A stretch of 24,000 nucleotides of DNA from Maccoyibacter intestinihominis (GCF_040096355.1 NZ_JBBMEX010000002.1:272483-296482), one strand, 5' to 3'; shown: positions 2 through 18,892, numbered from the stretch's first letter. Notes: generated by a model from the letters alone, not told the origin. Numbers and translations are program-made.

Positions 2-946
2 TTCGATAGCAAAATTTTATCATGGCTATACTGGCGTATAGATATGATTTTTATTTTCTATCTAATCATTGGTTTTGTATGTATATTTAATTACTTCTGG
101 AAAAAACCATGGGGATATTTGGATGAAGTTATTTCCGCAACACAGACAGTTTATGAGCAGAATGATCATCCTGTAGCATTGTCTGATCCCCTTAAAGAAT
201 TAGAGGAACAACTTAACCAGATTAAACTGTCTGTGTTGTTAAGCAAACAGGTAGCAAAAGAAGCTGAGGATAGGAAAAATGAAATTGTTATGTATCTGGC
301 CCACGATATACGCACTCCCCTAACAACAGTGATTGGATATTTAAGTTTACTCCACGAAGCACCGGATATGCCTGAAAAACAGAAAGAAAAATATGTTCAA
401 ATTGCATTAAGTAAGGCTGAACGACTTGAAAAGCTTATCAATGAATTGTTTGAAATTACAAAATATAATGCACACACTGTCTCGTTAAAGAAAGAAAAGG
501 TAGACTTACAGTGTTTGTTGGCACAGGTAGTTGATGAAATATATCCCTCTTTATCTGCAAAAGGCAATTCGGCTGCTTTTACGGTTGATGATGATTTAGT
601 TGTATATGCTGATCCGGAAAAGCTGGCAAGGGTTTTTAGTAATCTTTTGAAAAATGCAGCGGCATACAGCTATCCTAATACAGAGATTATTATAACTGCA
701 AAGCGTTGTGGTAATAGCGTTCAAATAAACTTTGAAAATCATGGACGGACTATTGAACCTGAACAAATTTCTGGCATATTTGAAAAATTCAATCGCTTGG
801 ATGAAGCCCGCCTTTCTGATACAGGCGGTGTAGGATTAGGACTGTCGATTGCAGAGGAAATTATACGATTACATGGTGGAACCATTACTGCGTTTAGCGA
901 AAATGAGATGGTGTCTTTTGTGATTATGCTTCCCATTTCTGATTAG
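2..946 (+). CDS. VanS-type sensor histidine kinase, 5' end outside the window
   Basis: The frame stays open upstream of ATG 44 to the window edge. It has an H-box (MYLAHDIRTPLTTVIGYLSLLHEAPDMP) and HATPase_c N/G boxes (LLKNAAAYS, DTGGVGLGLSIAEEI). Long stretches parallel enterococcal VanS as I recall it. Confidence 0.85.
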   Translation, partial: FDSKILSWLYWRIDMIFIFYLIIGFVCIFNYFWKKPWGYLDEVISATQTVYEQNDHPVALSDPLKELEEQLNQIKLSVLLSKQVAKEAEDRKNEIVMYLAHDIRTPLTTVIGYLSLLHEAPDMPEKQKEKYVQIALSKAERLEKLINELFEITKYNAHTVSLKKEKVDLQCLLAQVVDEIYPSLSAKGNSAAFTVDDDLVVYADPEKLARVFSNLLKNAAAYSYPNTEIIITAKRCGNSVQINFENHGRTIEPEQISGIFEKFNRLDEARLSDTGGVGLGLSIAEEIIRLHGGTITAFSENEMVSFVIMLPISD

Positions 947-1077: not shown

Positions 1078-1965
1078 ATGGAATTAAAGATTGAACACAT
1101 CAGCAAACAGTTCAAAGATAAAACTGCAGTCGATGATGTCAGCCTTACATTAACAACTGGCGTATGGGGATTATTGGGGGCAAATGGGGCTGGAAAAACC
1201 ACTCTCATGCGAATACTTGCAGACATTATGACACCTAGTAGTGGTCGTATATCTTTGGATGGGAAAGACATTCATAAAATGGGAGCAGATTATCGCAATA
1301 TCTTTGGCTTTTTGCCACAAGATTTTGGCTATTCCCGCGATTTTACGGTCAAAGACTATCTGGAATATGTTGCTGCACTAAAGGATGTGCCGCTCAGAGA
1401 AACCACAAAGAAAATCAACTATCTGTTGGATATTCTTACCCTTTCTGATGTGAAGCGAAAAAAAATTGCACAACTATCTGGTGGTATGAAACGTCGTGTA
1501 GGAATTGCACAGGCCATGCTGAATGACCCTAAAATTCTTGTTATGGATGAGCCAACAGCAGGACTTGACCCTGGAGAAAGAGTACGGTTTAGAAACTTCA
1601 TTTCGGAATTTTCCCATGACCGTATTGTGTTGATTTCTACGCATATTGTTTCTGATATTGAATATATTGCAACTCGTAATGCGATTATGAAAGCTGGAAA
1701 GATTATTGATGTGGGAACAACAAGCGATTTGGTAAAACAGATTGAGGGGAAAGTATGGAGCTGTGCGATTCCTGCTCATAAGATGATGGACTATGAAATG
1801 CGTCTGAGGATTATCAATCAGCGAGGCGAGGACAATAATCAAATATCTATTCGTTATCTTGCAGAGCACTCCGAAGTAGAGGGTTCCATTCTTGCGGAGC
1901 CGCGTTTGGAAGATTTGTATTTATGGTTGTTTCCACAAGAAGATGTCGAAAGGGAGGAAAAATAA
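1078..1965 (+). CDS. ABC transporter ATP-binding protein (ABC-2 type)
   Basis: RBS AAAGGAG lies upstream. Walker A is GANGAGKTT, the signature is LSGGMKRRVGIA and Walker B is ILVMDEPTAGLD. Confidence 0.9.
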   Translation: MELKIEHISKQFKDKTAVDDVSLTLTTGVWGLLGANGAGKTTLMRILADIMTPSSGRISLDGKDIHKMGADYRNIFGFLPQDFGYSRDFTVKDYLEYVAALKDVPLRETTKKINYLLDILTLSDVKRKKIAQLSGGMKRRVGIAQAMLNDPKILVMDEPTAGLDPGERVRFRNFISEFSHDRIVLISTHIVSDIEYIATRNAIMKAGKIIDVGTTSDLVKQIEGKVWSCAIPAHKMMDYEMRLRIINQRGEDNNQISIRYLAEHSEVEGSILAEPRLEDLYLWLFPQEDVEREEK

Positions 1966-1966
1966 T

Positions 1967-3205
1967 ATGCGTTTATTTTGTTTAGAAGTAAAGCGTGTCC
2001 TGAAATCACGACGCACACTTATCTTAATTGCTGTGGCTCTGGTTATGTCTGTTGTTATGGCATATCTGCCGATTGCTTTTGAGTCCATAAATCGTCCAAA
2101 CCCAGATGGAACAAAAACAGAACTTGATGGTATGGAGGCAATCGAATTTAAGCGTGATTTATATTCTGCTATAAATGGCGAAGTTACTCCAGAAAAAGTG
2201 AGTGAGGCTTTGAGAATTTATCAAAGTTTGATAAACGAATATGGTCCTATGGAAAGTGACACATTTCCGCTTTCTGTCAGTATTAAACAGATTGTACCTA
2301 TTCGTCCATTGCTTAAAGCGTTGCCAGAACTATATGCTGATCCGTTAACTGGAATAGGACCTGATCTTATGGATATTGATCCAGAAGATGTTGCACAAAA
2401 TTATTATCAGAAATGTGAAACTCATCTGGCAGATGTTATGAGGAATGAGCAACGCAATCATCCGGCCGCACAACAACAAGCCTTAGAACAATATAAAAAA
2501 GTCGATATGCCATTTCAACTTTATGCAGGATATTCCAAAGACGCGTTTGACTATGTTGAGCTTTATATTATGATTTTGGCAATTTTATGTGTTTCCATTA
2601 TCACGCCTATTTTTTCTGGTGAATATCAATCAGGCGCGGATAGTATTTTGCGTTGTGCAAAGCATGGTCGTACCAGATTAGCTATTACAAAGATATTGGC
2701 TTCCAGTATGATTGTGATGGTTGTGTATACTATGTGTATTACACTGCACTTAGCAATTTCAGATATCACATTTGGAACAAATTGTTTACAATCTTCTGTT
2801 CAAATGTTGTTTTCTATTATTAACTTGCCAAACTGGGACTTAGCACAGATGCAGATTGTTATTTCGTTAGTAGGGTTGATATCTGTTTTAGCTTGTGTTT
2901 ACTGTACTTTTTTTTTATCAGCAAAATGCAAAGATACATTGACGGTATTGTTGATTGCTATTGGCATAGTCCTTATTCCGACTTTTGCTTACACAGCATT
3001 AGGGGTAAATTGGATTTCAGCTATTTTTCCATCTGCGGGACTTGGTATGCAAAATAATTTTCTGTATCAACTTATCAATTTTAATTACCTACATATTGGG
3101 GGAATGAGTTTTTGGACACCGTATACTATATTAATTTCCGCATTGATTGAGATTCCTGTTTTCTTATTTCTTACAGTTCGAACTTATTGTAGGCACCAGA
3201 TGTAA
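1967..3205 (+). CDS. ABC-2 family permease with a large extracytoplasmic loop after TM1
   Basis: ATG 1967 lies 1 nt after the ATPase stop (the ORF-track start at 1892 overlaps the ATPase gene). The protein has an N-terminal TM helix, a ~190-aa hydrophilic loop, then multiple hydrophobic helices. Confidence 0.75.
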   Translation: MRLFCLEVKRVLKSRRTLILIAVALVMSVVMAYLPIAFESINRPNPDGTKTELDGMEAIEFKRDLYSAINGEVTPEKVSEALRIYQSLINEYGPMESDTFPLSVSIKQIVPIRPLLKALPELYADPLTGIGPDLMDIDPEDVAQNYYQKCETHLADVMRNEQRNHPAAQQQALEQYKKVDMPFQLYAGYSKDAFDYVELYIMILAILCVSIITPIFSGEYQSGADSILRCAKHGRTRLAITKILASSMIVMVVYTMCITLHLAISDITFGTNCLQSSVQMLFSIINLPNWDLAQMQIVISLVGLISVLACVYCTFFLSAKCKDTLTVLLIAIGIVLIPTFAYTALGVNWISAIFPSAGLGMQNNFLYQLINFNYLHIGGMSFWTPYTILISALIEIPVFLFLTVRTYCRHQM

Positions 3206-3248
3206 ATATAAGGAAAAAGGGCTATATTCATAAAGTATAGAGGATTTA

Positions 3249-3308
3249 TTACATCAAGTATCGAAATTGTTACATCAAAATATATTTTGGGGGATTTATT
3301 GATATAAT
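3249..3308 (+). promoter_or_regulatory. Candidate regulated promoter of the rSAM operon
   Basis: TTACATCAA occurs at 3249-3257 and 3270-3278 (21-bp register). GGATTTATT occurs at 3242-3250 and 3292-3300. An extended -10, TGaTATAAT, lies at 3300-3308 with no good -35. Confidence 0.45.
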
Positions 3309-3348
3309 CGGTTCATAATAAAAAATCCAAATGAAAGGAGTGTTTAGA

Positions 3349-4902
3349 GTGAAAGAGCAGAAAAAAATATCTTTAGAATCGCTGGTATCTGAAATCGAAA
3401 AAAATGGAAGAATTGGGCGCTTGGGTAAAGTTTTTAAGACAGAAAAAAATTATTATTTTTATGATACAGGAACTGGAAAAGTTGCCAAATTAAATTCGAA
3501 CGTTTACATTGTACTGAAAAGTTTATTGGAGGGAATGCCAGTCGAAGATATTAAAAATCTTCAATTAAGTAAAAGTGAGTTTGAGGATGCAATTTCAGAA
3601 ATTAAGTCGGCAATGGAAAATGAACATATTTTACAAGCTCCACCATTAAAAACGCTGACAGGTGATGCAGTAACAGAGTTAGATGATATTCTTGAAAATA
3701 AGGTTGAGAATGTTACTCTTGAAGTTACTGAAAAATGTAATTTACGTTGCAAATATTGTATTTATCATCCTTCTCATCCAGAATACAGGGCGTTCGGACA
3801 TGAAAACATGAAATGGGATGTTGCAAAAAAAGCTATTGATTTTTTAAAAGAGCATTCCCAAAATGCAGAAAATAGGCACATTGGATTTTATGGTGGAGAA
3901 CCTTTACTAAATTTTGAACTTATTGAAAGAGCAGTTGAATATGCTAAAAAATTATTTGGCGAGGATATGTCCTTTGCAATCACTACAAATGCAACATTGG
4001 TAAATGATAAGATCGCAGAGTATTTTGCCAAAAATAATTTCAATATTATTATTAGCTTGGATGGTCCTCAGGAAATGCACGATGCAAATCGGCTTATGGT
4101 TAATGGGACAGGTAGCTTTGAAAAAACAGTTATGGGAGCAAAAAAACTATTTGAAGCATTCCATAAGGAAGGAAAGAGTTCTAAGATTGGATTTAATATG
4201 GTTGTATCGGGACCAGGTTATCTTGAACAGTATACAAAAATTCAGGAGTTTATCGAAAAAAGTGAATGGATTCCCAAAGACGTTATGATTTTGACTGCAA
4301 CGGTAGATCATGGACCGTCAGAGAGTGATTACTTTTTACCGCAAGGAAAAGAAGATAGATGGTTTATGGAAGAGTTTTATGAACCTTTAATGAAATGGGA
4401 AGAAGTGTATAAATCAAATCCAGATAATACAGAAAAAACTTTGTTTACGGATGGTTATATGGATAAGGGAATGATGATTATACACAAACGCTTGTTGACA
4501 GAAACACCTATTCAACAGTATGGAATGAATGGATGCTGCGTGCCGGGACAAAGAAGGATTTATGTCACTACAAAAGGTGAATTTTTACATTGTGAAAAAG
4601 TAGGAAATATACCTTGTTTAGGCAATGTGAATGAGGGATTTGATAAAGAAAAAATTAAGAAACTTTATGTTGAAGACTTTATAGAAGAAGCAAAAGAGTA
4701 TTGTAAAGAATGTTGGGCAGTTAATTTATGTACATTATGTTATGTTAATTGCTACGATGCTAATGGATTACATCTTTCATATCGACATAATTCATGTCGA
4801 AACGAAAGAAAGTATTTGGAAGACAATTTAAGACGATATCATGCATTAATGGAGGCAAATCCAAGCGAATTGGAACAATATAATGAAATGGAAATTCATT
4901 AA
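3349..4902 (+). CDS. Radical SAM / SPASM-domain peptide maturase
   Basis: The protein carries CNLRCKYC (CX3CX2C), FYGGEPLL, and C-terminal auxiliary-cluster cysteines (CCVPG...KGEFLHC, then CKECWAVNLCTLCYVNC). A ~130-aa N-terminal extension precedes the rSAM core. RBS AAAGGAG at 3334-3340 favours GTG 3349 over ATG 3331. Confidence 0.88.
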   Translation: MKEQKKISLESLVSEIEKNGRIGRLGKVFKTEKNYYFYDTGTGKVAKLNSNVYIVLKSLLEGMPVEDIKNLQLSKSEFEDAISEIKSAMENEHILQAPPLKTLTGDAVTELDDILENKVENVTLEVTEKCNLRCKYCIYHPSHPEYRAFGHENMKWDVAKKAIDFLKEHSQNAENRHIGFYGGEPLLNFELIERAVEYAKKLFGEDMSFAITTNATLVNDKIAEYFAKNNFNIIISLDGPQEMHDANRLMVNGTGSFEKTVMGAKKLFEAFHKEGKSSKIGFNMVVSGPGYLEQYTKIQEFIEKSEWIPKDVMILTATVDHGPSESDYFLPQGKEDRWFMEEFYEPLMKWEEVYKSNPDNTEKTLFTDGYMDKGMMIIHKRLLTETPIQQYGMNGCCVPGQRRIYVTTKGEFLHCEKVGNIPCLGNVNEGFDKEKIKKLYVEDFIEEAKEYCKECWAVNLCTLCYVNCYDANGLHLSYRHNSCRNERKYLEDNLRRYHALMEANPSELEQYNEMEIH

Positions 4903-4965
4903 CAAAGGTAAATACGTTTATATTTACATAGATGTATTTAAATTACAAAGAAAGGAGGAATCGTT

Positions 4966-5166
4966 ATGAAGTTTGTAAATCCAATTGGAAGAACACCTGG
5001 ATCAGGAGTGCAGCCGAGAGCATGCATGTGTACTGATGGATATGCAGGTTACAGAGGCAATGATGATGGTTGTGTTCATTGTGGCTGTGGCTGTGGTGGC
5101 GAAGGAGAGTATCGTACAGGTAACAGAGTAAATGCTGTTGCTACATTCCGTTCTAGTACTCTCTAA
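4966..5166 (+). CDS. Cys-rich RiPP precursor peptide candidate (66 aa, 6 Cys)
   Basis: A strong RBS AAAGGAGGA at 4951-4959 lies 6 nt before the ATG. The peptide is MKFVNPIGRTPGSGVQPRA-CMCTDGYAGYRGNDDGCVHCGCGCGG-EGEYRTGNRVNAVATFRSSTL. It sits between the rSAM maturase and the ABC exporter. Confidence 0.75.
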   Translation: MKFVNPIGRTPGSGVQPRACMCTDGYAGYRGNDDGCVHCGCGCGGEGEYRTGNRVNAVATFRSSTL

Positions 5167-5180
5167 GAGGTAGTAAAAAC

Positions 5181-5211
5181 GAAGGCGTAGTACTATATGT
5201 GCTACGCCTTC
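5181..5211 (+). terminator. Stem-loop between precursor and exporter genes (possible partial terminator or mRNA stabiliser)
   Basis: GAAGGCGTAG (5181-5190) pairs perfectly with CTACGCCTTC (5202-5211). No U-tract follows it. Confidence 0.4.
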
Positions 5212-5230
5212 ACTATATAGGAGAAAAATC

Positions 5231-7006
5231 ATGCTAAAAAAAATAAAAAGGAATATTTTTTTGATTTATTATACGATAAGATTAATTTGTAAAATATGTA
5301 AAGCAAAATTTATTCTGGCATTTATTTTGTCTATAATAAATGGAATTCTTCCTGTTTCGTCCTTATTGGTAATGCAACAGTTGTTAAATGAAATACAAAA
5401 CAAGACACAATCATATCAATATGTGGTGTATCTTTTGATTTTATATTTCGGGCTAATTATCTCGGAATCGCTTTTACAGAATTTAGCAAGCTATAATTTA
5501 AACAATTTAAACAATCATTTAGTTTATGGAATAAATTACATTCTTATGAAAAAATGTGGGGATTTATCATTGGAAATGTTAGAGAGAACAGAAACATATG
5601 ATATGATAAATCGTTTAGAACAAGAAATTGGAAATAAACCATATCAGACCATGCAAGGGGTATTAGGCTTAGCATCTAATTTAGTTTCGTTATTTTCAGC
5701 CGCAATGATACTACTTTCATGGAATCCAATTCTTGTGATTATAATGATTGCTGTGTCAATATTAATGTTTATAGGACAAATTTATGTTGGTAATAAAGAA
5801 TTTCTAATGAGATATGAGCGCAGTGGAAAAGAAAGAAAAGCGTGGTATTATACATATTTACTTACACATGATACAGCATTTAAAGAGGTAAAAGCATATG
5901 GATTAAAAAAATATTTGCTGGATAAATATTGTAGCTTAGTCAAAACTTTCATAAAACAAGCCAATGAAATTGAAAAAACCAGAGCTGTTTTAAATATGAT
6001 TATTTCGTTTATACAAGATATAGTTTGTATAATTATAATGATTATTGCAATATATTTGGCTTACGTAGGGAAAAAAATGATAGGAACCACTATGTCATAT
6101 TTAAATGCTGTGTCCATGATGCAAAATGCTACAAATAGCATTGCCTCTAATGTTTATTCTATTTATAACGCAAATTTATATATACAATTACTAAAAGATT
6201 TTTTAGAAATAAAAGAAGGGGAGAATGCGTTAGGTGGTACAAAAGTAGATAATATAAAGACAATTGAACTAAGAAACGTATCTTTCGATTATCCTCAATG
6301 TAAAATGGCACTATCTACCATTAATTTAAAAATTAAATCAAACGAACAGATTGCAATTGTAGGAAAAAATGGATCTGGGAAAAGCACTTTATTTAAAATT
6401 TTATGTGGGTTATATAAACCTACTAGTGGGAAGCTATTTGTTAATAATCTTGATTTGGAGAATATTGATGTAAAGAGTTACAGGAATTGTATATCTGTTC
6501 TTTTTCAAGATTTTTTAAAGTATGAAGGTACATTGGAAGAGAACGTTTATATAGGAGATATTAGTACAGAAGTCGATGAAAATAAAATTAAAAATTCATT
6601 GTGCAAAGCAAACGTTGATTTTTTAAAAACCGAAAGAGGATACGAACTAAAAAGAGGATTAGGAAATTGGTTTGATGAAGGAGGTCAATTATCAGGTGGT
6701 CAATGGCAGAAAATAGCGTTAGCAAGAACCTATTATAAAAATGCAGATTTATATTTGTTGGATGAGCCTAGTTCCGCATTAGATGTAACAGCAGAAACCA
6801 AAATTTTTAAGAGTTTTTTTGAGGTGAGTAAAAATAAGATAGCAATATATATAACCCATAGAGTAAAAATTGCACAGGATGCTAATAAAATAATTGTATT
6901 AGATGGGGGTAAAATAGTAGGTATAGGAACACATGCAGAGTTATTGAAAAATTGTAGTGTATATCAAGATTTATATAATCAAGAGAACCTAAAAAATAAA
7001 GGGTAA
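5231..7006 (+). CDS. ABC exporter, fused TMD-NBD, without an N-terminal C39 peptidase domain
   Basis: RBS AGGAG lies at 5219-5223. The hydrophobic N-terminal half starts at residue ~20. Walker A is GKNGSGKST, the signature is LSGGQWQKIALAR, Walker B is LYLLDEPSSALD, and the H-loop is ITHR. Confidence 0.88.
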   Translation: MLKKIKRNIFLIYYTIRLICKICKAKFILAFILSIINGILPVSSLLVMQQLLNEIQNKTQSYQYVVYLLILYFGLIISESLLQNLASYNLNNLNNHLVYGINYILMKKCGDLSLEMLERTETYDMINRLEQEIGNKPYQTMQGVLGLASNLVSLFSAAMILLSWNPILVIIMIAVSILMFIGQIYVGNKEFLMRYERSGKERKAWYYTYLLTHDTAFKEVKAYGLKKYLLDKYCSLVKTFIKQANEIEKTRAVLNMIISFIQDIVCIIIMIIAIYLAYVGKKMIGTTMSYLNAVSMMQNATNSIASNVYSIYNANLYIQLLKDFLEIKEGENALGGTKVDNIKTIELRNVSFDYPQCKMALSTINLKIKSNEQIAIVGKNGSGKSTLFKILCGLYKPTSGKLFVNNLDLENIDVKSYRNCISVLFQDFLKYEGTLEENVYIGDISTEVDENKIKNSLCKANVDFLKTERGYELKRGLGNWFDEGGQLSGGQWQKIALARTYYKNADLYLLDEPSSALDVTAETKIFKSFFEVSKNKIAIYITHRVKIAQDANKIIVLDGGKIVGIGTHAELLKNCSVYQDLYNQENLKNKG

Positions 7007-7172
7007 TGCATGATGCCTACTCTCCTTTTGGAAATAGAGAGAAATGCTGCTGTTCTAACATTTCCCAACAATTATTTATAGGATGAATATTCGGTGGATA
7101 TGCACAACTTTAAAATTAGGCGCTTGCATAAAACGGAACATATCTAATCTGAAAAGTAAGAAGCATATTCAT

Positions 7173-7363
7173 ATTATTGTGAACTTCTGTGAAAATTAAC
7201 GCTCGATTGAAACAACTGAGTGTTTTCAATGTTTCCATCGGATTTAAAGTAAAATTCTGAGAGTTAATTAACTCTACGAGGAATTTATAAAATTCACTGT
7301 AAACGGCTGAAATAAACTATTTTTAGAAAATGAGAGTTAATTTTTCAGGAAGTTCACAATTAT
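7173..7363. repeat. ~190-bp noncoding segment bounded by 15-bp inverted repeats (14/15 match)
   Basis: ATTATTGTGAACTTC at 7173-7187 matches GAAGTTCACAATTAT at 7349-7363 as an inverted repeat. Inside are a perfect 14-bp palindrome GAGTTAATTAACTC (7261-7274) and the direct repeat GAGAGTTAATT (7259-7269 and 7332-7342). Confidence 0.5.
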
Positions 7364-7499
7364 AGAAAAGATGGCAGAGATAGAAATTATGTAAAAAGTA
7401 AAAATAACTAAAAAAGTGCCGGATGTTGGATATTTCGTTCGGTATTTCTTTCTGGAATGGGAACAGTTAGAAATTTATAAATCAAGAGGAGGCATACAG

Positions 7500-7829
7500 A
7501 TGAAGTATGTTTTTCCAGAATATAAAGAGAATGTAGTTTTGGGCGATGGAAAACTGCAGTTAAATCCAATGTCCTATCAGGTTATTTACGAAGGAAAGGA
7601 AATAGATTTAACGCCCAGGGAATTTGAAGTTCTGTATCTTTTAGCCCAAAGGCCAAATTGGGTTATTCCAAAGAAGAATATCTATTGTTCGGTCTGGGAG
7701 AGTAATTATTATGATGATCAGATTCCGTACAAAACAGTGGAACACGTAGTATGGAAGATACGAAAAAAGATGGGGCATGATATTATAGAAACATTGATCA
7801 ATGTAGGGTATAGACTAAAAAAGATGTAA
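7500..7829 (+). CDS. Stand-alone OmpR/PhoB-type winged-helix DNA-binding protein (no receiver domain)
   Basis: RBS AAGAGGAGG precedes ATG 7500. The Trans_reg_C-like sequence runs LTPREFEVLYLLAQRPNWVIPKKNIY..VW....VEHVVWKIRKKMG...IETLINVGYRL. The 28 codons upstream in the ORF track do not look like a receiver domain. Confidence 0.75.
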   Translation: MKYVFPEYKENVVLGDGKLQLNPMSYQVIYEGKEIDLTPREFEVLYLLAQRPNWVIPKKNIYCSVWESNYYDDQIPYKTVEHVVWKIRKKMGHDIIETLINVGYRLKKM

Positions 7830-8990: not shown

Positions 8991-9623
8991 ATGGGAAAAC
9001 AACAGGATAGAGAGAAAATTGTACAGGAGATTAAAGTAGCTGCTGATCTGTATAGGAAGCATTTAGTAGGTAAAAGATTTCTATATGTATTTGAAGGCAG
9101 ATATATTGAGGTGCTTTATAAAGCTGCCAATTTTAGGCACTTGACAGGTGTGGCCACGAACCTTTCAGCAAAAAAGTTTTATAGTTATGCAGCAAAAAAA
9201 ATGCTTCAGGCTTCGCAGATATTTTTTACACCGCAGCACCCTTTTTCATTGTGTAAGCGTAAGATTAAGCATATCGGACAGATTGCAATGCTGGCTGGCT
9301 CAGAAGGATTTATGCTGGAAGAGATTGTCACAGACACGAGAACTTATAAGTTTGGCACAACAGATCTTAATTTTACTCTATGCTTAAATAAAGAGTATGA
9401 TGATAAGGGGCAGCAAAAGGGCGATTGCTTTGTAGTAGAATCGCTGCGAGATGAAGATTGCTTTTCTAAAAGTAGAACAGCATATACAGTAACTCATATT
9501 TTTTCAGCGCCGAATGATGCGAAAAAATATACAAATTTACTGTTTTTAGATGAAAATGCAACGGTAGACGGTCTTCCAGATGAAATTAAAAACATGCTGG
9601 ATCAAACTTTACTACATAAATAA
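8991..9623 (+). CDS. Hypothetical protein (210 aa)
   Basis: A long ORF with normal composition and a weak RBS (GGGAAAAG). It lies downstream of the leader and terminator. I cannot place it in a family with confidence. Confidence 0.6.
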   Translation: MGKQQDREKIVQEIKVAADLYRKHLVGKRFLYVFEGRYIEVLYKAANFRHLTGVATNLSAKKFYSYAAKKMLQASQIFFTPQHPFSLCKRKIKHIGQIAMLAGSEGFMLEEIVTDTRTYKFGTTDLNFTLCLNKEYDDKGQQKGDCFVVESLRDEDCFSKSRTAYTVTHIFSAPNDAKKYTNLLFLDENATVDGLPDEIKNMLDQTLLHK

Positions 9624-9718
9624 AAATGGAGAGTACAGGTCTTGGCGTATAGAAAATACTGCAGGATCTTCTTACGAAAGAATTTTTTAAGATATGAGAG
9701 AAAAGAGGTGCTTTCTAT

Positions 9719-9898
9719 ATGGCTACATCAAGTATCCTTACAGAGCTTGTGATTGAAGACCCCAAAAAGGCAGAAGCATTTATTAATGCACTGGAACTGT
9801 CCAGTCAAGATCCAGTATGCAGCCCGTCTGCCCCGTTCATTCCCATATTAGATAGTGTGGAAGAGATACGGAGGTTCCTGGAAAGAAAAAACAAGTAA
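9719..9898 (+). CDS. Small hypothetical protein (59 aa, below the ORF-track cutoff)
   Basis: RBS AAAGAGG at 9702-9708 precedes ATG 9719. The product is MATSSILTELVIEDPKKAEAFINALELSSQDPVCSPSAPFIPILDSVEEIRRFLERKNK. A terminator follows. Confidence 0.45.
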   Translation: MATSSILTELVIEDPKKAEAFINALELSSQDPVCSPSAPFIPILDSVEEIRRFLERKNK

Positions 9899-9939
9899 GC
9901 CTATGTATTGGCAAATATCTTAGATGAATAGAAGCTATT

Positions 9940-9975
9940 GGAGAGGAGTCGATATGTGACGTTCTCTCCTTTTTT
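9940..9975 (+). terminator. Rho-independent terminator
   Basis: GGAGAG (9940-9945) pairs with CTCTCC (9964-9969), with an inner GTC/GAC pairing, followed by T6 (9970-9975). Confidence 0.65.
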
Positions 9976-10176
9976 ATGCCTAATTGAAGAGATAATGCAG
10001 TGCTTTTTCGTAAATGGTGCAAAAATCGTTTTCAACTCGTTCAGATATAATAAATCTCTAAAACCAAAAAAGGAAAGAAATGGTAATGAAACTGGGAAAT
10101 CTTGCCTCCATAGTCCATTACCAGGGAAAGGATTTGTAATTATAATAGAGCCTGTAATCAACGAGGAGATAAAAGA

Positions 10177-10533
10177 ATGCAGAATGAACTTTATATTGTA
10201 GCAGATGCCATAAAAGCCTTGCGGGAATCCAGGGGACTGACTCAGGAGCAGCTTGCAGAGAAAGCAGATATTTCCGTATCACATCTGGCGAAGATTGAAA
10301 CACATGCCAGACTTATGGGAATGAAAACTTATATCCGGCTGTTGGAAGCTATGGATATTCCCATAAAAGAACACTTTATACACATGGGTACAGCGAAAAA
10401 AGATATGATGTTGAAGGAAAAAATCTGGTATCTGGTACAGGATTGTGATGAAAGAGAAACTAACCTTTTGATCTATTCCATAGAGGGAATTAAGAAAGGG
10501 CTAAAGAAATATCAGCAAGACAGCAGGAAGTGA
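10177..10533 (+). CDS. XRE-family helix-turn-helix transcriptional regulator
   Basis: RBS GAGGAG precedes the start, and TATAAT lies at 10141-10146. The HTH_3-like segment is LRESRGLTQEQLAEKADISVSHLAKIE. Confidence 0.8.
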   Translation: MQNELYIVADAIKALRESRGLTQEQLAEKADISVSHLAKIETHARLMGMKTYIRLLEAMDIPIKEHFIHMGTAKKDMMLKEKIWYLVQDCDERETNLLIYSIEGIKKGLKKYQQDSRK

Positions 10534-10559
10534 GAATACAGATAGGGAGGAAAAGGGAA

Positions 10560-11015
10560 ATGTTATCAAGAGAAAAGGTGGAAGCAGTATTATTTAAAAT
10601 GGGAATGCCTGCCAATGTAAAAGGATTTGGCTATATTGTAGACAGTGTTTTGCTTCTGGAAGAAGACAGCAAGATTAAAACGACATATCTGTATTTTAAG
10701 GTGGCCCAGCAACATGGCACGACAGGGCAGCGGGTAGAACGGGCAATCCGCCATGCGTTTGATATTGTCCGAAGCTGCAGAGGTGATTATGATGTGGTGA
10801 ACCATTATATCGGTTTTATCAACTGTGCCAATTCCCCTTCCTTATCCATGCTCACAATGAAGATACGGGAGGAAGCACTGGAAGTACCGGAACCAAAACC
10901 GGAAAAGAAAGAAGAGAACGTGATTACGGGAATTACCGAAGACCGGCTTTTGGAGTTGATGCGGCAGGCATGTACGGAATTTTGGGCAGATATGATTATC
11001 CGGTTAAAAAAATAA
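10560..11015 (+). CDS. Stand-alone Spo0A C-terminal (DNA-binding) domain-like protein, no receiver
   Basis: RBS GGGAGG precedes ATG 10560. GMPANVKGFGYIVDSV and GTTGQRVERAIRHAFDIV parallel B. subtilis Spo0A GVPAHIKGYLYLREAI and NTTASRVERAIRHAIEVA. Confidence 0.8.
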   Translation: MLSREKVEAVLFKMGMPANVKGFGYIVDSVLLLEEDSKIKTTYLYFKVAQQHGTTGQRVERAIRHAFDIVRSCRGDYDVVNHYIGFINCANSPSLSMLTMKIREEALEVPEPKPEKKEENVITGITEDRLLELMRQACTEFWADMIIRLKK

Positions 11016-11038
11016 AGAGAAATGCAGACCGAAAACAG

Positions 11039-11076
11039 TCTGCCAAAACACATCAGGGTTATGGTGTCTTTTGGCA
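11039..11076 (+). terminator. Terminator-like hairpin after the Spo0A-C-like gene
   Basis: CTGCCAAAACAC (11039-11050) pairs with GTGTCTTTTGGCAG (11063-11076, 2-nt bulge). The U-tract is weak. Confidence 0.4.
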
Positions 11077-11432
11077 GGCTGATGTTTTCAGCCGGGAAGA
11101 ACCTTGAAAACTGAATATCAGTATGGTGATATTTTTTTAAAACAAACGTGTCATTTCTGACGCTAATCTATAGAAATATCTTAAAGGACACAAAACATTT
11201 CGGCACATTCTATTTTGTATGATGCAGGGTCATGAGCTGTGCGAAGATACACTTGTCCGCAGTGGCAGCAGGTAAGGCAGAAAAGAAGCGGATCAAACAA
11301 GGAATCGTAGAAGATGAAGGGAAAGTGTGAGCAGCGCCCGGACATAGGCTGTGGGTGGCAGGCAGTCTGAAAGCCGAATGATAATGATACCTTTGCATAA
11401 AACACTGCAACCAGGGTAGCGTCTGGGACATG

Positions 11433-11611
11433 CTGCAGCGGGAAAGGGTGCTGCAGGGTGTCAGGCGGCCAGCCGGGCCGGTCCTACATGCTCCCGTTCA
11501 CACCGGGGTGAGAAAATAAAAAACATGCTGGCAGGGAAAGCCCTGCCAGTATGGTGTGTAAAATGGGTTCATTTTAGGGCTATGGGGAAACGCCGGTTTC
11601 TTTATAGCCCT
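11433..11611 (+). other. Cluster of three strong GC-rich hairpins in a noncoding stretch
   Basis: CTGCAGC/GCTGCAG pair at 11433-11456. CTGGCAGGG-AAAG-CCCTGCCAG forms at 11528-11549. AGGGCTAT...ATAGCCCT, with an inner GAAAC/GTTTC, forms at 11576-11611. Confidence 0.5.
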
Positions 11612-11650
11612 GGAATGAAAACAGGAGCCAAAGAAAGAGGAGGCAGAGCA

Positions 11651-12196
11651 ATGAATAGAGAGATGTTACAAAAACTGTTTTCAGAAGATAAAGAGATCTT
11701 TCAGGGAGGAATGTTATTCCCTGCATGGATCTGCAAAGGAAAAAAAGAGATAGAAAATAGGAACAGTCCCCAGCGGGCGGCAGTGTATCTGGATATTCCC
11801 ATTCCATGTGCCGGGCTTTTGTATTATGAAAAAGAAAAAAGCCTGCATTACTGTGAACAGCAGACATACCATGTGGTTACTTTACTGGAAGGTGTAGGGT
11901 GTGGTAATTCCATAGAAAAAGAAAACTGGCAGAGGCTGGCAGTGCTTGCAGGAAAAGGCATGATTGATGTGATTGTGGTATCCGGGCTTAGCAGGTTATC
12001 CTATTGTCCGGAAGAAATTTTACAGACTATGGAACTGCTCCAGTCTTTTCAGGTGCAGATAGACTGTATCGGTTATGGGATTTTAGATTATGCCAGACTG
12101 AAACAGTATTTAATGCACACCTGGGAGAAACAGGAACAATTTGAGCAGGACTTAGATGCGTATCTGTGCAGTTGCTGTACCAGGGAAGGGATATAA
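11651..12196 (+). CDS. Resolvase N-terminal-domain-like protein lacking the catalytic serine
   Basis: A strong RBS AAAGAGGAGG precedes ATG 11651. AAVYLDIPIP occupies the position of the Y-x-R-x-S nucleophile motif. IDVIVVSGLSRLS matches the conserved ..DLSRL.R motif. There is no recombinase, zinc-ribbon or HTH extension. Confidence 0.6.
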   Translation: MNREMLQKLFSEDKEIFQGGMLFPAWICKGKKEIENRNSPQRAAVYLDIPIPCAGLLYYEKEKSLHYCEQQTYHVVTLLEGVGCGNSIEKENWQRLAVLAGKGMIDVIVVSGLSRLSYCPEEILQTMELLQSFQVQIDCIGYGILDYARLKQYLMHTWEKQEQFEQDLDAYLCSCCTREGI

Positions 12197-12450
12197 TGCT
12201 CTCGCGGGAAGAACTGCTGAAGATGCGGGAAATGACGTTTGAGGACATTGACCCGAAAGAGATACAAGATGTAGAGAAACTGAAGATTGATGTAAAAAAG
12301 AGCAAACCGGAGAAGGTCCGGGAAATCCTGGAGTCCGGAAAGAACCCTTATTTTCTGAAATATAAGGGGATCACCATAAAGATTGGGTTTGCTTCTACCA
12401 ACCGTACCATAGAGGAAGCCATGCAAAGCCTTGTGCAGATGAAATGGTAA
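12196..12450 (+). CDS. Hypothetical protein (84 aa), translationally coupled to the preceding gene
   Basis: The TAATG stop/start overlap is at 12194-12198. The product begins MLSREELLKMREMTFEDIDPKEIQD. Confidence 0.55.
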   Translation: MLSREELLKMREMTFEDIDPKEIQDVEKLKIDVKKSKPEKVREILESGKNPYFLKYKGITIKIGFASTNRTIEEAMQSLVQMKW

Positions 12451-12600
12451 AGCCACGACAGGGATAGGGAAGAAAGCGGATTGTTGGCAGATTACAGGGT
12501 GGACAAACCTTCTGGACTATGGTAGGATGATGGCAAGGACCCAGTAGCCTCTATCATTTAGGGAATCGGCTGACGAATCTAAATGATAGGAGCGAATACA

Positions 12601-14268
12601 ATGAAAAATCAAATACTTAAAAAAATCTATCGTGCGGTTGTTTACCTGCGCCTTTCTGACGAAGATGGTGATAACAGGGAAAGCGACAGCATATCAAACC
12701 AGAGGATACTAATCCATAGCTTTTTAAAGAGCCACCCTGAAATTCAGGTGGTAAAAGAATGTGTAGATGATGGATATACCGGCACAAACTTTAACCGCCC
12801 CGGTTTTCAGGAAATGCTGCGTATGCTGGAAGAGGGGGAAGCAGACTGTATTATTGTCAAAGACCTTTCCCGTTATGGAAGGGACTTTTCCGGTGTTTTA
12901 CAGTATGTGGAACGTATCCTGCCGAAAATGGGTGTGCGCCTGATCCTTGTCAATGACAATTATGACAGCCTCACGCCAAATCGTGATTTCCTTACCCTGA
13001 GATTTAAAAGTTTAATCAATGACCTTTACCCTGCGGATACTTCCAAAAGTGTGCGTTCCCATTTGTATGTCAAAATGACAGCCGGGCAGTGTGTAGCGCC
13101 TTTTGCTTTTTATGGTTATCTGAAATCCGAAGAGGATAAACATAAGCTGGTCATGGACGAAGTGGCAGCTTCTGTTGTACGGGATATTTACCACATGAAA
13201 ATGCAGGGCTACAGCCTGACGGATATATCCGAAGAATTAAACCGGCGTGGGATCTTGACGCCTCTTCGGTATAAGCAGGTATATTTAAAACAGAAATTAA
13301 AGACAGGGTTCCGTCTGACGGAAAAACCGGTCTGGATGCCAACTATGGTGCGTCGTATCCTTCTTGATGAACGCTACACCGGAGTGCTGATACAGGGAAA
13401 AACCACAACGCCAAACCATAAAGTAAAGGTTGTGATCCACAAAGAGGAAGCTGAGTGGATACGGTATGAAAATGCTTTTGAGCCGGTTATCAATAGACAC
13501 CAATATGAAGTGGTGGGCAACCTGATGAAAATGGATACCATGAGAGGTGCAAAGGGGCTAGCGCTTCTTTCAGGCCTGGTAAAATGTGGGGACTGTAAAG
13601 AAAGCATGGTACTGAAAAGCCCAGATAAAGTCCACCACTATTATGTATGTTCGACTTCCCTTTATGAAAAGCAGTGCAGTTCCCATAGTATCAGTGAGAA
13701 AAAACTGGTAGGAGCTGTGACAGAGGCAATCCTGCATTATATTTCTGTTCTGGTGGAGCTGAAAGAGATACTGGCGTATGTAAAAACTGCCTCAATCCCA
13801 AGACAGCGGCTTTTGGAAGAAGACAAAAAACTGGAGATGCTGGAAAAGGAGAGCCAGAGGATTTTAAACATTAAAGTAAAACTGTATGACAGTTTTGCAG
13901 AAGAAATCCTGGACCGGACAGAATTTGAAACCTTCAAAGCAAAGTATGACCAGTCTTTAGAGGAAATCCGGCAGGCAATGGAGTGCCAGCAAAGGGAAAT
14001 CCGAAACTTGCAGGAAACCCTTGAAAAACAGCAGGAGTGGCTGGAATATTTTCTGGAATACCGGGACCGGACGGAAGTGGACCGCTTAATGCTGGTAAAC
14101 CTGGTCAAACGGATTGAGGTATATGAGCAGAAGCGCATTATCATTCATTTTTGGTTTGAAGATGAATTTGAAAAGGTATTGGGACTGCTGGAAACGGTAA
14201 ATAGAGCAAAGCCGGATCAGCATGTGGAAGCCTTCCTGAAAGGAAAGGGGGCGGAAGCAAGTGCCTAA
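12601..14268 (+). CDS. Large serine recombinase 1
   Basis: RBS TAGGAG precedes ATG 12601. The protein has YLRLSDEDG...SISNQR, IIVKDLSRYGRDF, a zinc-ribbon CGDC...C..C segment and a C-terminal coiled-coil-like region. Confidence 0.9.
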   Translation: MKNQILKKIYRAVVYLRLSDEDGDNRESDSISNQRILIHSFLKSHPEIQVVKECVDDGYTGTNFNRPGFQEMLRMLEEGEADCIIVKDLSRYGRDFSGVLQYVERILPKMGVRLILVNDNYDSLTPNRDFLTLRFKSLINDLYPADTSKSVRSHLYVKMTAGQCVAPFAFYGYLKSEEDKHKLVMDEVAASVVRDIYHMKMQGYSLTDISEELNRRGILTPLRYKQVYLKQKLKTGFRLTEKPVWMPTMVRRILLDERYTGVLIQGKTTTPNHKVKVVIHKEEAEWIRYENAFEPVINRHQYEVVGNLMKMDTMRGAKGLALLSGLVKCGDCKESMVLKSPDKVHHYYVCSTSLYEKQCSSHSISEKKLVGAVTEAILHYISVLVELKEILAYVKTASIPRQRLLEEDKKLEMLEKESQRILNIKVKLYDSFAEEILDRTEFETFKAKYDQSLEEIRQAMECQQREIRNLQETLEKQQEWLEYFLEYRDRTEVDRLMLVNLVKRIEVYEQKRIIIHFWFEDEFEKVLGLLETVNRAKPDQHVEAFLKGKGAEASA

Positions 14269-17516: not shown

Positions 17517-17572
17517 GAAAGAACCGGGAGAGCTTATTGTCCTGGATTCCGGTAGAGAAAAAGATTTCATAA

Positions 17573-17610
17573 AAGAGGAGGAAAACGCTGCGGTGTCTTC
17601 CTCTTCTTTG
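17573..17610 (+). terminator. Terminator-like hairpin after the recombinase operon
   Basis: AAGAGGAGGA (17573-17582) pairs with TCTTCCTCTT (17596-17605, one G-U pair), followed by CTTTG. The same hairpin recurs at 19831-19870. Confidence 0.5.
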
Positions 17611-17650
17611 TATTAGGAGAAAATTAGGCAAAGAAGATGGGGGAGGAGCC

Positions 17651-18121
17651 ATGTATCTTGAAACATATTCTATGGAAGAACTGATGGAGCTGATAGAAGA
17701 GAAAGGGTATTGCTCTGTGGAGGCAGTAGAAATCCTGAAAGAAATGGAACAGGCAAAAAAAGAGTATGATTTTTTACTCCGGGATTGTGAGGAAAAAGCG
17801 TGGAAAACAGACCAGGTGGTAGTTGATTATTACCGGCATCTCTTAGAAGAATTACGGAAATCGTTGCCCTATGATGCTATGGGAGGGCAGTACACAATTC
17901 CGATTTTGGTGTTACAGGAGTTCCGTAAACCGGACATTGTAGAAAAAATCAGGGATTTTATTGGTTGTCAGGCTGGATTTTCCGATCATGCTCTGTTACA
18001 GGAAATACAGAAATTTATGACCGTACATCTGGACCCGCAGGGAATTATCCTCTATATGGACGTATTGGGAAACCAGCCGGCGGCAAGGAATGTTTACAAA
18101 CAGGGAGGACAAATGTGGTAA
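17651..18121 (+). CDS. Hypothetical protein (156 aa), intact copy
   Basis: RBS GGAGG at 17643-17647 precedes ATG 17651. Its stop overlaps a GTG that starts only a 27-codon remnant of the 20202 gene. Confidence 0.6.
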   Translation: MYLETYSMEELMELIEEKGYCSVEAVEILKEMEQAKKEYDFLLRDCEEKAWKTDQVVVDYYRHLLEELRKSLPYDAMGGQYTIPILVLQEFRKPDIVEKIRDFIGCQAGFSDHALLQEIQKFMTVHLDPQGIILYMDVLGNQPAARNVYKQGGQMW

Positions 18122-18300
18122 AAGAAAGAGTATTGGCGGTTCTCGACATCATTATGAAAATAAGATATAGGAAGATTATTGAAAAAGTGGTACAATAAAA
18201 TATAAAGAAAAATAAGCATTAAAAGTAATATAAAAACCAAAGAAAATATGATAGGTTAATAATTTAACTTAGAAATAGAATACGAATGGAGATGTTTAAA

Positions 18301-18879: not shown

Positions 18880-18892
18880 GAGAGAAAAGAAA

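What the first reader, a model, noticed from the sequence alone, without database searches (positions are those of the whole stretch)
4966..5166. Precursor peptide with an unusual three-part layout: leader, CxC...CxxCxCxC core, long Cys-free tail
All six cysteines fall in a 24-residue window (CMCTDGYAGYRGNDDGCVHCGCGCGG) that is rich in Gly, Asp and Tyr. Before it lies a 19-aa N-terminal segment (MKFVNPIGRTPGSGVQPRA) with no obvious double-Gly cleavage motif. After it comes a 23-aa Cys-free tail (EGEYRTGNRVNAVATFRSSTL). Most sacti/ranthipeptide precursors end soon after the last Cys. A long follower suggests either C-terminal processing, a follower-type recognition sequence, or acceptor residues for crosslinks located in the tail. 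At the DNA level the GCGCG run is a short codon repeat (ggctgtggctgtggtggc).
Basis: seen in the sequence. Interest (0 to 1): 0.65.

Follow-up and report, generated by a model that had tools for sequence, protein, structure and literature searches.

The report
Sactipeptide-type bacteriocin precursor, known family
This is a real, conserved 66-residue gene for the precursor of a radical-SAM cross-linked bacteriocin-type peptide from an already catalogued but chemically uncharacterised family, and its Cys-free tail is the place where such peptides normally carry the residues that the cysteines get tied to.

Summary
The ORF at 4966-5166 (+) exists as described. It encodes 66 aa with six Cys between C20 and C43 and a 23-aa Cys-free tail.

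It is a genuine gene:
- It scores 105 bits against NCBIfam TIGR04067 (cut-off 45), the "Apre_1838 family putative sactipeptide bacteriocin", which is also Pfam PF27802.
- It is intact in 12 loci from other genera.
- dN/dS is 0.07 for the leader, 0.05 for the Cys core and 0.28 for the tail.
- It is the only part of a 1.5-kb stretch recovered in four metatranscriptome assemblies.

It sits in a conserved cluster: OmpR-type regulator, VanS-like kinase, ABC-2 pair, RRE-rSAM-SPASM maturase, precursor, hairpin, and an ABC exporter without a peptidase domain. The maturase's best family match is RumMC of ruminococcin C. It has exactly RumMC's SPASM cysteine spacing.

The layout is not unusual. Characterised sactipeptides place donor Cys N-terminal and acceptors in a Cys-free C-terminal stretch. 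Ruminococcin C has the same length and a similar layout.

Across 50 family members the tail keeps a rigid N-x3-A-x2-T-x-R-x-S block that usually ends the peptide. The best reading is that the tail carries acceptor residues. This is inferred, not shown.

The homologous Anaerococcus prevotii cluster was described in silico in 2011. I found no chemical characterisation of the family. Verdict: a new member of a known kind, of modest interest.

The parts
2..946 (+). VanS-like sensor histidine kinase. Its 5' end lies upstream of the window. An OmpR-type response regulator and a VanZ-like gene precede it in the genome.
   Evidence: Pfam HisKA + HATPase_c. NCBIfam VanS model 354 bits, below the 400 cut-off. 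Upstream genes in L023. Conserved next to the cluster in other genomes.
1078..1965 (+). ABC-2 type transporter ATPase, a candidate immunity/efflux component.
   Evidence: Pfam ABC_tran. 51-81% identical copies in the same position in 12 loci.
1892..3205 (+). ABC-2 type permease partner of the ATPase. The true start is probably downstream of 1892.
   Evidence: Precomputed weak ABC2_membrane_2 hit on the 412-aa gene call in identical contigs. Conserved in all loci.
3331..4902 (+). Radical SAM/SPASM peptide maturase (523 aa) with an N-terminal RRE-like domain.
   Evidence: Pfam Radical_SAM. Best NCBIfam match is RumMC, 475 bits end to end. CX3CX2C at C136/140/143, plus C402-X13-G-X4-C421-X36-C458-X2-C461-X5-C467-X2-C470-X18-C489. 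AF2 model pLDDT 91, with the best fold match CteB over about 490 columns.
4950..4958 (+). Ribosome-binding site of the precursor gene.
   Evidence: AAAGGAGGA lies 7 nt upstream of the ATG.
4966..5022 (+). Precursor residues 1-19, the putative leader. It holds the family-wide motif M-K-x-(I/V)-N-P-x-G-R, then a variable linker, then P-R-A.
   Evidence: N5, P6, G8 and A19 are conserved in at least 90% of 50 family members. Length varies only in the linker, from 18 to 26 aa. dN/dS 0.07.
5023..5094 (+). Precursor residues 20-43, the Cys-rich donor region: C-x-C, a 13-aa spacer, then C-x2-C-x-C-x-C.
   Evidence: C20, C22, C36, C39 and C43 are invariant and C41 is present in 47/50. The C36-to-C43 spacing is 7 in 50/50. 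dN/dS 0.05.
5095..5166 (+). Precursor residues 44-66 plus the stop codon: a Cys-free tail with a rigid N53-x3-A57-x2-T60-x-R62-x-S64 block, the putative acceptor region.
   Evidence: The N53-to-S64 spacing is 11 in 47/50. 27/50 peptides end at S64. Only 1/50 has a Cys in the tail. dN/dS 0.14 for residues 44-55 and 0.55 for residues 56-64.
5181..5211 (+). Stem-loop (13-bp stem, 5-nt loop) between the precursor and the exporter, with no T-run. Probably a partial terminator or mRNA-stabilising element.
   Evidence: MFE -24.9 kcal/mol, z = -6.7. An equivalent hairpin of different sequence follows the precursor in all 9 other loci folded. Three of the four RNA-library contigs end at 5169-5184 and the fourth at 5150.
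5231..7006 (+). ABC exporter (591 aa, TMD + NBD) lacking a C39 peptidase domain.
   Evidence: Pfam ABC_membrane 27-295 and ABC_tran 361-514 only. Alignments to peptidase-containing bacteriocin ABC models start at about model position 155. Conserved downstream of the precursor.

Best explanation
The ORF encodes the precursor of a radical-SAM-modified, thioether-cross-linked peptide, most likely a sactipeptide-type bacteriocin. It belongs to the Apre_1838/CLOSPO_01332 family (TIGR04067 / PF27802).

Proposed mechanism:
- The conserved N-terminal M-K-x-I-N-P-x-G-R segment acts as the leader. It docks on the RRE-like N-terminal domain of the adjacent RumMC-like rSAM/SPASM maturase.
- The maturase abstracts an H atom from acceptor residues and links them to the Cys thiols.
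- By analogy with ruminococcin C, C20 and C22 are tied to residues in the 13-aa spacer, forming a first hairpin.
- C36, C39, C41 and C43 are tied to residues in the Cys-free tail, forming a second hairpin. Candidate acceptors are the register-conserved N53, A57, T60, R62 and S64.
- The tail is therefore part of the mature product, not a follower.
- The leader is removed by a protease not encoded in the cluster, possibly after the frequent Arg/Lys at position 18.
- The peptidase-less ABC exporter secretes the product.
- The ABC-2 pair, the VanZ-like protein and the VanS-like two-component system provide sensing and self-protection.

Shown here: the gene is real and under purifying selection, it belongs to the family, the cluster is conserved, the maturase has the stated architecture and cysteine motif, and the gene is present in RNA libraries. 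Inferred: the thioether chemistry, the number of bridges and their connectivity, the leader cleavage site, and any antimicrobial activity.
For: - Family membership: TIGR04067 at 105 bits against a cut-off of 45, and PF27802 on all homologues.
- Selection: dN/dS is 0.07, 0.05 and 0.28 for the three segments, with dS above 1. The frame is intact in 12 loci from Lachnospiraceae, Peptoniphilaceae and a Paenibacillaceae MAG.
- Synteny: the regulator, kinase, ABC-2 pair, rSAM, precursor and exporter are conserved together.
- Maturase: the best family match is RumMC (475 bits, full length). Its SPASM cysteine spacing is identical to the one published for RumMC1/2. The AF2 model has pLDDT 91, with a beta3-alpha3 N-terminal domain and the best fold match CteB.
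- RumC parallels: a 63-aa precursor, a 19-aa leader, C-x-C followed by a second Cys pair, and acceptors at positions 31, 35, 53 and 61, including two in the Cys-free tail.
- Family-wide tail conservation: the N53-to-S64 spacing is constant in 47/50, and the peptide usually ends at S64.
- Known acceptors: those of thurincin H are N, T, T and S.
- Exporter: it lacks a C39 domain, which fits the absence of a double-Gly leader.
- Expression: four metatranscriptome assemblies hold only 4946-5184 of the 1.5-kb stretch laid.
Against: - No chemistry was observed. I found no paper characterising any member of this family.
- The precursor shows no significant sequence similarity to RumC (hhalign probability 1.3%; no NF035950 hit).
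- The maturase scores below the RumMC equivalog cut-off (475 against 720).
- The last nine tail residues are only weakly constrained overall (dN/dS 0.55).
- Three family members lack C41 yet keep every conserved tail residue, so there is no donor/acceptor covariation.
- The RNA evidence comes from assembled contigs of runs chosen because they hold this gene. DNA carry-over cannot be formally excluded.
Confidence: 0.7

Rival explanations
1. The peptide is a ranthipeptide. The maturase would form S-C-beta or S-C-gamma thioethers to side-chain carbons, for example of the conserved D34 or of tail Thr/Asn, rather than S-C-alpha sactionine bridges.
For: The closest solved structure by sequence and fold is CteB, the SCIFF maturase. 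A published analysis notes that the TrnC/huazacin/RumMC clade is more similar to ranthisynthases than to AlbA/ThnB. D34 is conserved in 44/50 members. Sequence alone cannot assign regiochemistry.
Against: The RumMC model scores 475 bits, against 168 for PapB and 159 for the SCIFF maturase. RumMC2 has been shown to abstract the C-alpha hydrogen. The SPASM motif spacing is identical to RumMC. There is no SCIFF-precursor hit for the peptide, and no repeated C-x3-D motif like the one in PapA.
Confidence: 0.12
2. The tail is a follower. It would serve mainly as a recognition or solubility element, or be removed by C-terminal processing, and all cross-links would lie within residues 20-43.
For: Residues 56-64 evolve faster (dN/dS 0.55). 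RumMC2 modifies a leaderless C-terminal fragment, and its RRE matters even then, so recognition determinants can lie in the C-terminal region. There is no direct evidence for acceptor positions.
Against: Residues 20-43 hold six Cys, but only about 13 non-Cys spacer residues precede C36. The C36-C43 donors are packed (x2, x, x), with no room for nested acceptors between them. The tail has fixed-register conserved residues and a conserved end point. The most conserved non-Cys motif is N-terminal, and the maturase has an N-terminal RRE-like domain. No protease gene is conserved in the cluster.
Confidence: 0.1
3. Only some Cys form thioethers. The rest would form disulfides or bind a metal, or all six donors would reach into the tail as one large nested hairpin (type I topology) instead of two hairpins.
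For: Sporulation killing factor combines one thioether with a disulfide. C41 is replaced by Phe/Tyr in 3/50 members. The topology cannot be read from sequence.
Against: Five Cys are invariant and the sixth is 94% conserved. A variable-length spacer of 13-21 residues separates C22 from C36, with conserved A27/R30/G31/D34. That resembles the two-domain RumC arrangement.
Confidence: 0.08

Closest known systems
Apre_1838 / CLOSPO_01332 family (NCBIfam TIGR04067, Pfam PF27802), including the Anaerococcus prevotii pAPRE01 cluster Apre_1834-1840 described in silico by Murphy et al. 2011 (PMC3132745)
   Same: The window peptide passes the family's curated cut-off. The gene neighbourhood matches: kinase, ABC transporters, a maturase of about 518 aa with a CNLRCKYC motif, and a 65-66-aa Cys-rich peptide.
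   Different: 70-84% identity to the genome-derived homologues. The window cluster lacks the second 409-aa permease-like gene of the Peptoniphilaceae version, and its VanZ-like gene sits between the regulator and the kinase. I found no member that has been chemically characterised.
Ruminococcin C (RumC1-5) and its sactisynthases RumMC1/2 from Ruminococcus gnavus (type II, double-hairpin sactipeptide; PDB 6T33)
   Same: The maturase's best family match. The SPASM motif CX13GX4CX36CX2CX5CX2CX18C is identical, and both have the RRE-rSAM-SPASM architecture. Precursor lengths are alike (63 and 66 aa) and both have a 19-aa N-terminal segment before the core. Both have a C-x-C pair, then a spacer, then a second Cys cluster, then a Cys-free tail of about 20 aa. 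In RumC that tail holds two acceptors. Both clusters carry two-component and ABC genes.
   Different: No significant precursor sequence similarity. The maturase is below the RumMC equivalog cut-off (475 against 720). There are six Cys rather than four, one precursor and one maturase rather than five and two, and no RumPc-like peptidase gene in the cluster.
Thurincin H / thuricin CD (type I, single nested-hairpin sactipeptides of Bacillus)
   Same: Donor Cys lie in the N-terminal part of the core and acceptors in a Cys-free C-terminal stretch. Thurincin H acceptors are N19/T22/T25/S28, and the conserved tail positions here are N53/A57/T60/S64.
   Different: Regular CX2C or CX3C donor spacing, shorter peptides (30-31 aa) and a single hairpin. 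The maturases ThnB and TrnC/D are more distant.
SCIFF/CteA with CteB (ranthipeptide)
   Same: CteB is the closest solved structure to the maturase (TM 0.6-0.73 over about 490 columns). Both precursors have six Cys.
   Different: The SCIFF maturase model scores only 159 bits against a cut-off of 425. The peptide has no SCIFF hit. SCIFF cysteines lie in the C-terminal 45 residues with no long Cys-free tail.
CA_C0660 family putative sactipeptide bacteriocin (NF035954)
   Same: Both the window peptide (27 bits, E = 3e-6) and RumC1 (14 bits, E = 0.03) hit this model weakly over nearly their full length. This hints that the three peptide families of about 64 aa are distantly related.
   Different: Both hits are well below the cut-off of 60 bits, so this is not a membership.

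Membership tests
Apre_1838/CLOSPO_01332 putative sactipeptide bacteriocin family (TIGR04067 / PF27802) | Score above the curated HMM cut-off over the full model | tested here: met
   105 bits against a cut-off of 45, E = 1.5e-30, residues 1-57 on model positions 1-58 of 59. PF27802 is precomputed on the identical protein and all homologues. My local Pfam copy lacks this model.
Apre_1838/CLOSPO_01332 putative sactipeptide bacteriocin family (TIGR04067 / PF27802) | Adjacent rSAM/SPASM maturase of about 515-523 aa plus ABC transporters and a histidine kinase, as in A. prevotii Apre_1834-1840 | tested here: met
   tblastn synteny in 12 loci. Description of the A. prevotii cluster.
Sactipeptides (class) | Cys sulfur to alpha-carbon thioether bridges in the mature peptide | not testable with these tools
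   Needs MS/MS or NMR of the modified peptide.
Sactipeptides (class) | rSAM maturase with CX3CX2C and a SPASM domain carrying auxiliary-cluster cysteines, plus an RRE | tested here: met
   Cysteine positions. AF2 model and CteB fold match. Sequence HMMs for PqqD/SPASM did not fire on the isolated pieces.
Sactipeptides (class) | Donor Cys N-terminal to a Cys-free acceptor stretch (hairpin layout) | tested here: met
   The sequence layout is conserved in 49/50 family members. The acceptors themselves were not observed.
RumC family sactipeptide (NF035950) / type II double hairpin | Precursor matches the RumC model | tested here: not met
   No NF035950 hit for the window peptide, although RumC1 itself scores 84 bits. 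hhalign of the family profile against RumC1 gives probability 1.3%.
RumMC family sactipeptide maturase (NF035951) | Score above the equivalog cut-off of 720 bits | tested here: not met
   475 bits. It is the best hit and full length, but below the cut-off. The same holds for maturases beside TIGR04067 peptides in Anaerococcus and Lacrimispora, and for 10 further homologues.
RumMC family sactipeptide maturase (NF035951) | SPASM motif CX13GX4CX36CX2CX5CX2CX18C | tested here: met
   C402, G416, C421, C458, C461, C467, C470 and C489 against the published motif.
CcpM Cys-rich peptide maturase (TIGR04068) | Score above the cut-off of 500 bits | tested here: not met
   317 bits.
SCIFF / ranthipeptide | Precursor or maturase matches the SCIFF or PapB equivalogs | tested here: not met
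   SCIFF maturase model 159 against a cut-off of 425. PapB 168 against 340. No SCIFF peptide hit.

The most novel reading that the evidence does not exclude
All six cysteines form sactionine bridges in a 2+4 double hairpin, with four nested bridges reaching into the Cys-free tail. This would be the most heavily cross-linked sactipeptide known, since characterised ones have at most four bridges. It would be encoded on a mobile cluster whose exact peptide is indexed in more than 21,000 blocks of the public assembly collection searched, and it appears to be expressed as a short abundant transcript.
Probability: 0.3. Interest if true: 0.55.

Novelty: new member of a known kind. Interest (0 to 1): 0.3.

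Why it matters
The family has been catalogued since 2011 (genome mining, TIGRFAM, now Pfam), but I found no structural or activity data for it. The nearest characterised relative, ruminococcin C, is a well-studied anti-clostridial peptide from the gut. This member is highly prevalent in public assemblies, appears to be transcribed, and sits on mobile DNA. That makes it a reasonable target for heterologous production. For the genome scan itself the result is mostly corrective: the "unusual" three-part layout is the ordinary donor/acceptor layout of sactipeptides.

Tried and rejected
- **PDB sequence searches** with the peptide and with the family profile gave only spurious low-complexity or zinc-finger matches.
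- **Direct homology to RumC1** was tested with a profile comparison and rejected (probability 1.3%).
- **CcpM (TIGR04068) as the partner maturase family** was considered and rejected. Even maturases next to strong TIGR04067 peptides score about 300 bits against a cut-off of 500.
- **Sequence HMMs for an RRE (PqqD) or SPASM domain** on the excised N- and C-terminal pieces found nothing. The architecture rests on the cysteine motif and the AF2 model with its fold search instead.
- **Consensus promoter/terminator scan** of 3150-7450 found no more sites than shuffled sequence gives. It missed the post-precursor hairpin because that has no T-run.
- **Literature searches** for the peptide motifs, locus tags and model accessions found only two genome-mining papers. 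Searches for six-bridge or RumC-like sactipeptides found nothing on this family. The pig-gut "sactipeptide-like" clusters are SCIFF, not this family.
- **Donor/acceptor covariation** was looked for in members lacking C41. There is none.
- **Organism name** is withheld by the tools. I did not pursue it.

Full report
**Observation**

It has:
- Cys at positions 20, 22, 36, 39, 41 and 43;
- a 19-aa N-terminal segment;
- 23 Cys-free residues after C43.

A strong Shine-Dalgarno sequence (AAAGGAGGA, 4950-4958) precedes the ATG. The ggctgt-ggctgt codon repeat is at 5083-5100. The own genome holds a single copy.

**It is a real gene of a catalogued family**

The peptide scores 105 bits (E = 1.5e-30, cut-off 45) against NCBIfam TIGR04067, "Apre_1838 family putative sactipeptide bacteriocin". 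The identical protein and all homologues carry the precomputed Pfam family PF27802, Bacteriocin_CLOSPO-01332. My local Pfam copy lacks that model.

A word-based search found 34 close relatives. A profile search of 1.8 billion representatives found 83 at E <= 1e-3.

Fourteen genome loci encode relatives, twelve of them with a full-length intact ORF. These come from Lacrimispora, Eubacterium plexicaudatum, Anaerococcus, Peptoniphilus, Ezakiella, Aedoeadaptatus and a Paenibacillaceae MAG.

Nucleotide identity to the window is only 66-74%, while protein identity is 70-84%. Pooled Nei-Gojobori estimates are:

| Segment | Residues | dN/dS |
|---|---|---|
| Leader | 1-19 | 0.07 |
| Cys core | 20-43 | 0.05 |
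| Tail | 44-64 | 0.28 |
| Tail, first part | 44-55 | 0.14 |
| Tail, last part | 56-64 | 0.55 |

dS is above 1 throughout.

Two rare database variants, P0032 and P0023, are frameshifted or rearranged in or just after the GCGCG codons. Each is a single-member cluster.

**Context**

Genes in the window, in order:
- a VanS-like kinase at 2-946;
- an ABC-2 ATPase and permease at 1078-3205;
- a 523-aa radical SAM enzyme at 3331-4902;
- the precursor;
- a 591-aa ABC exporter at 5231-7006, with TMD and NBD but no C39 peptidase domain.

Just upstream of the window lie an OmpR-type regulator and a VanZ-like gene.

The set of regulator, kinase, ABC-2 pair, rSAM, precursor and exporter is conserved in gene content across most of the loci fetched, though gene order differs between lineages. 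A VanZ-like gene is present in the Peptoniphilaceae and E. plexicaudatum versions.

The Anaerococcus prevotii version, on plasmid pAPRE01, was described by genome mining in 2011. That description names the 65-aa Cys-rich Apre_1838 and the 518-aa Apre_1837. It was listed again in 2014.

**The maturase**

- The best NCBIfam match is RumMC (NF035951): 475 bits end to end, below the 720 equivalog cut-off.
- CcpM scores 317 against 500, PapB 168 and the SCIFF maturase 159.
- Maturases beside TIGR04067 peptides in Anaerococcus and Lacrimispora score about the same, as do ten further homologues. This is a sister clade of RumMC for which NCBIfam has no equivalog model.
- The enzyme has CX3CX2C at C136/140/143.
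- It also has C402-X13-G-X4-C421-X36-C458-X2-C461-X5-C467-X2-C470-X18-C489. This is exactly the SPASM motif published for RumMC1/2.
- An AF2 model built from 41 sequences has pLDDT 91.2 and pTM 0.89.
- The model shows a three-strand, three-helix N-terminal domain at about residues 30-100, followed by the rSAM barrel and a C-terminal domain.
- The best PDB fold match is the RRE-containing thioether synthase CteB, over about 490 columns.

**Is the layout unusual?**

No. In characterised sactipeptides the donor Cys precede a Cys-free acceptor stretch:
- Thurincin H links C4, C7, C10 and C13 to S28, T25, T22 and N19 in a 31-mer.
- Thuricin CD links C5, C9 and C13 to residues 21, 25 and 28.
- RumC links C22 and C24 to residues 35 and 31, and C41 and C45 to residues 61 and 53, in a 63-aa precursor with a 19-aa leader.

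RumC defines the "type II" double-hairpin group, with Cys in both halves of the peptide. The window peptide has the same length class and a similar layout.

Across 50 family members of 35-80% identity:
- The C36-to-C43 spacing is 7 in 50/50.
- The N53-to-S64 spacing is 11 in 47/50.
- N53 is present in 47/50, A57 in 42 (Ser in the other 8), T60 in 37, R62 in 38 and S64 in 46.
- 27/50 peptides end at S64.
- 46/50 have six Cys.
- Only one member has a Cys in the tail.
- Length variation is confined to the leader linker, the C22-C36 spacer and the few residues just after C43.

The N-terminal M-K-x-I-N-P-x-G-R motif is the most conserved non-Cys element.

**Mechanism (inferred)**

The leader is recognised by the RRE-like domain. 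The RumMC-like enzyme forms thioethers. C20 and C22 link to the spacer, and C36 to C43 link to the tail, giving a double hairpin. The tail is part of the product.

No protease is conserved in the cluster, and the exporter lacks a peptidase domain. This fits the absence of a double-Gly site. Position 18 is Arg or Lys in 35/50 members, so a trypsin-like cleavage as in RumC is possible but not general.

A recognition role for the C-terminal region is not excluded. RumMC2 modifies a leaderless C-terminal fragment, and its RRE still matters in that case.

I could detect no direct sequence homology to RumC. Both peptides do weakly hit the CA_C0660 model.

**Expression**

Twelve RNA-labelled public runs hold the 291-nt precursor region, against two for the 3.8-kb cluster. 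I laid four metatranscriptomes, one from gut and three from wastewater, drawn from two studies, on window 4400-5900.

Each gave a single contig, 100% identical to the window:
- 4946-5169
- 4990-5184
- 4997-5169
- 4980-5150

Nothing lay on the flanking maturase or exporter sequence, apart from two matches of about 20 nt to an unrelated abundant contig.

A 13-bp hairpin at 5181-5211 follows the stop codon (MFE -24.9, z = -6.7). Equivalent hairpins of unrelated sequence follow the precursor in nine other loci. Together these suggest a short, abundant precursor transcript.

Caveats:
- The runs were chosen for holding this gene.
- Contigs carry no strand or depth profile.
- DNA carry-over cannot be strictly excluded.

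**Distribution**

The family was not found in any of the following genomes searched:
- the 5 other species of the genus;
- 200 other genera of the family;
- 12 other families of the order.

Three Peptoniphilaceae genera carry identical peptides and near-identical clusters. The exact peptide is indexed in 21,173 blocks of the assembly collection. In some contigs IS110, IS66 or IS91 transposases or an integrase lie directly upstream of the maturase or cut into it.

Downstream, the window carries a PBECR4 nuclease, an XRE regulator, a Spo0A-C-like gene, three large serine recombinases and AbiH. The cluster is accessory and horizontally mobile.

**Literature**

Searches for the motifs, locus tags and model accessions, and for six-bridge or RumC-like sactipeptides, found no chemical or biological characterisation of this family. 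The library searched does not cover most subscription journals.

**Earlier notes of this scan**

All earlier notes are from the same window. They agree on the rSAM-peptide-exporter cluster and on the VanS/ABC-2 module. The note that calls the RiPP class "unassigned" is superseded by the TIGR04067/PF27802 assignment.

**Verdict**

This is a new member of a known, in-silico-defined family. The most interesting open possibility is a six-bridge 2+4 double-hairpin product.

Noticed in passing
window 5181-5211; L003-L014 just after each precursor stop codon: A strong stem-loop without a T-run follows the precursor gene in the window and in all nine other loci folded. The sequences differ, MFE is -24 to -38 kcal/mol and z is -4 to -7.6. 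It is probably a conserved attenuator or mRNA-stabilising element that sets the precursor-to-exporter transcript ratio.
   Followed up: partly
window 4946-5184: In four metatranscriptome assemblies (one gut, three wastewater) the only contigs matching window 4400-5900 cover just the precursor gene, at 100% identity. The longest starts at 4946, 20 nt before the ATG.
   Followed up: partly
L023 (G000:C2:268483-272700), 2654-3867, and window 2-946: The two-component system of the cluster is Van-like. An OmpR-type regulator, a VanZ-like membrane protein and a VanS-like kinase (354 bits on the VanS model, cut-off 400) lie in a row. VanZ-like genes recur in the Peptoniphilaceae and E. plexicaudatum clusters. 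This hints at an envelope-directed immunity or sensing function.
   Followed up: partly
L023 1104-1685: An AgrB-like gene lies about 1 kb upstream of the cluster's regulator. It is not conserved with the cluster in other genomes. One database gene call (P0107) joins an AgrB domain to the identical maturase, which suggests a rearranged variant.
   Followed up: partly
window 7416-7829: Downstream of the exporter there is a stand-alone winged-helix Trans_reg_C gene (called as 109 aa) with no receiver domain. A roughly 490-bp gene-free AT-rich gap precedes it. The same arrangement appears in all six contigs that carry the identical peptide.
   Followed up: partly
window 8991-19798: Mobile-element cargo lies next to the cluster: a PBECR4 nuclease, an XRE regulator, a receiverless Spo0A_C-like protein, a resolvase-domain fragment, three consecutive large serine recombinases (12583-17516) and AbiH (18893-19798).
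   Followed up: no
L019, L020, L021 (contigs carrying the identical peptide): IS110, DDE_Tnp_1, IS66 or IS91 transposases and an integrase replace the ABC-2 genes upstream of the maturase in some contigs. In L021 the maturase is cut down to 205 aa. The exact peptide is indexed in 21,173 blocks of the assembly collection.
   Followed up: no
L009, L010, L011, L012: Aedoeadaptatus ivorii, Anaerococcus tetradius, Ezakiella coagulans and a Peptoniphilus MAG encode an identical peptide. It starts with GTG, and the cluster similarity values are near-identical. This points to recent horizontal transfer among Peptoniphilaceae.
   Followed up: partly
P0032, P0023, P0028 (database variants of the peptide): Single-member variants are frameshifted in, truncated after or deleted across the Cys-rich stretch that holds the ggctgt codon repeat. 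They could be slippage alleles or assembly errors.
   Followed up: no
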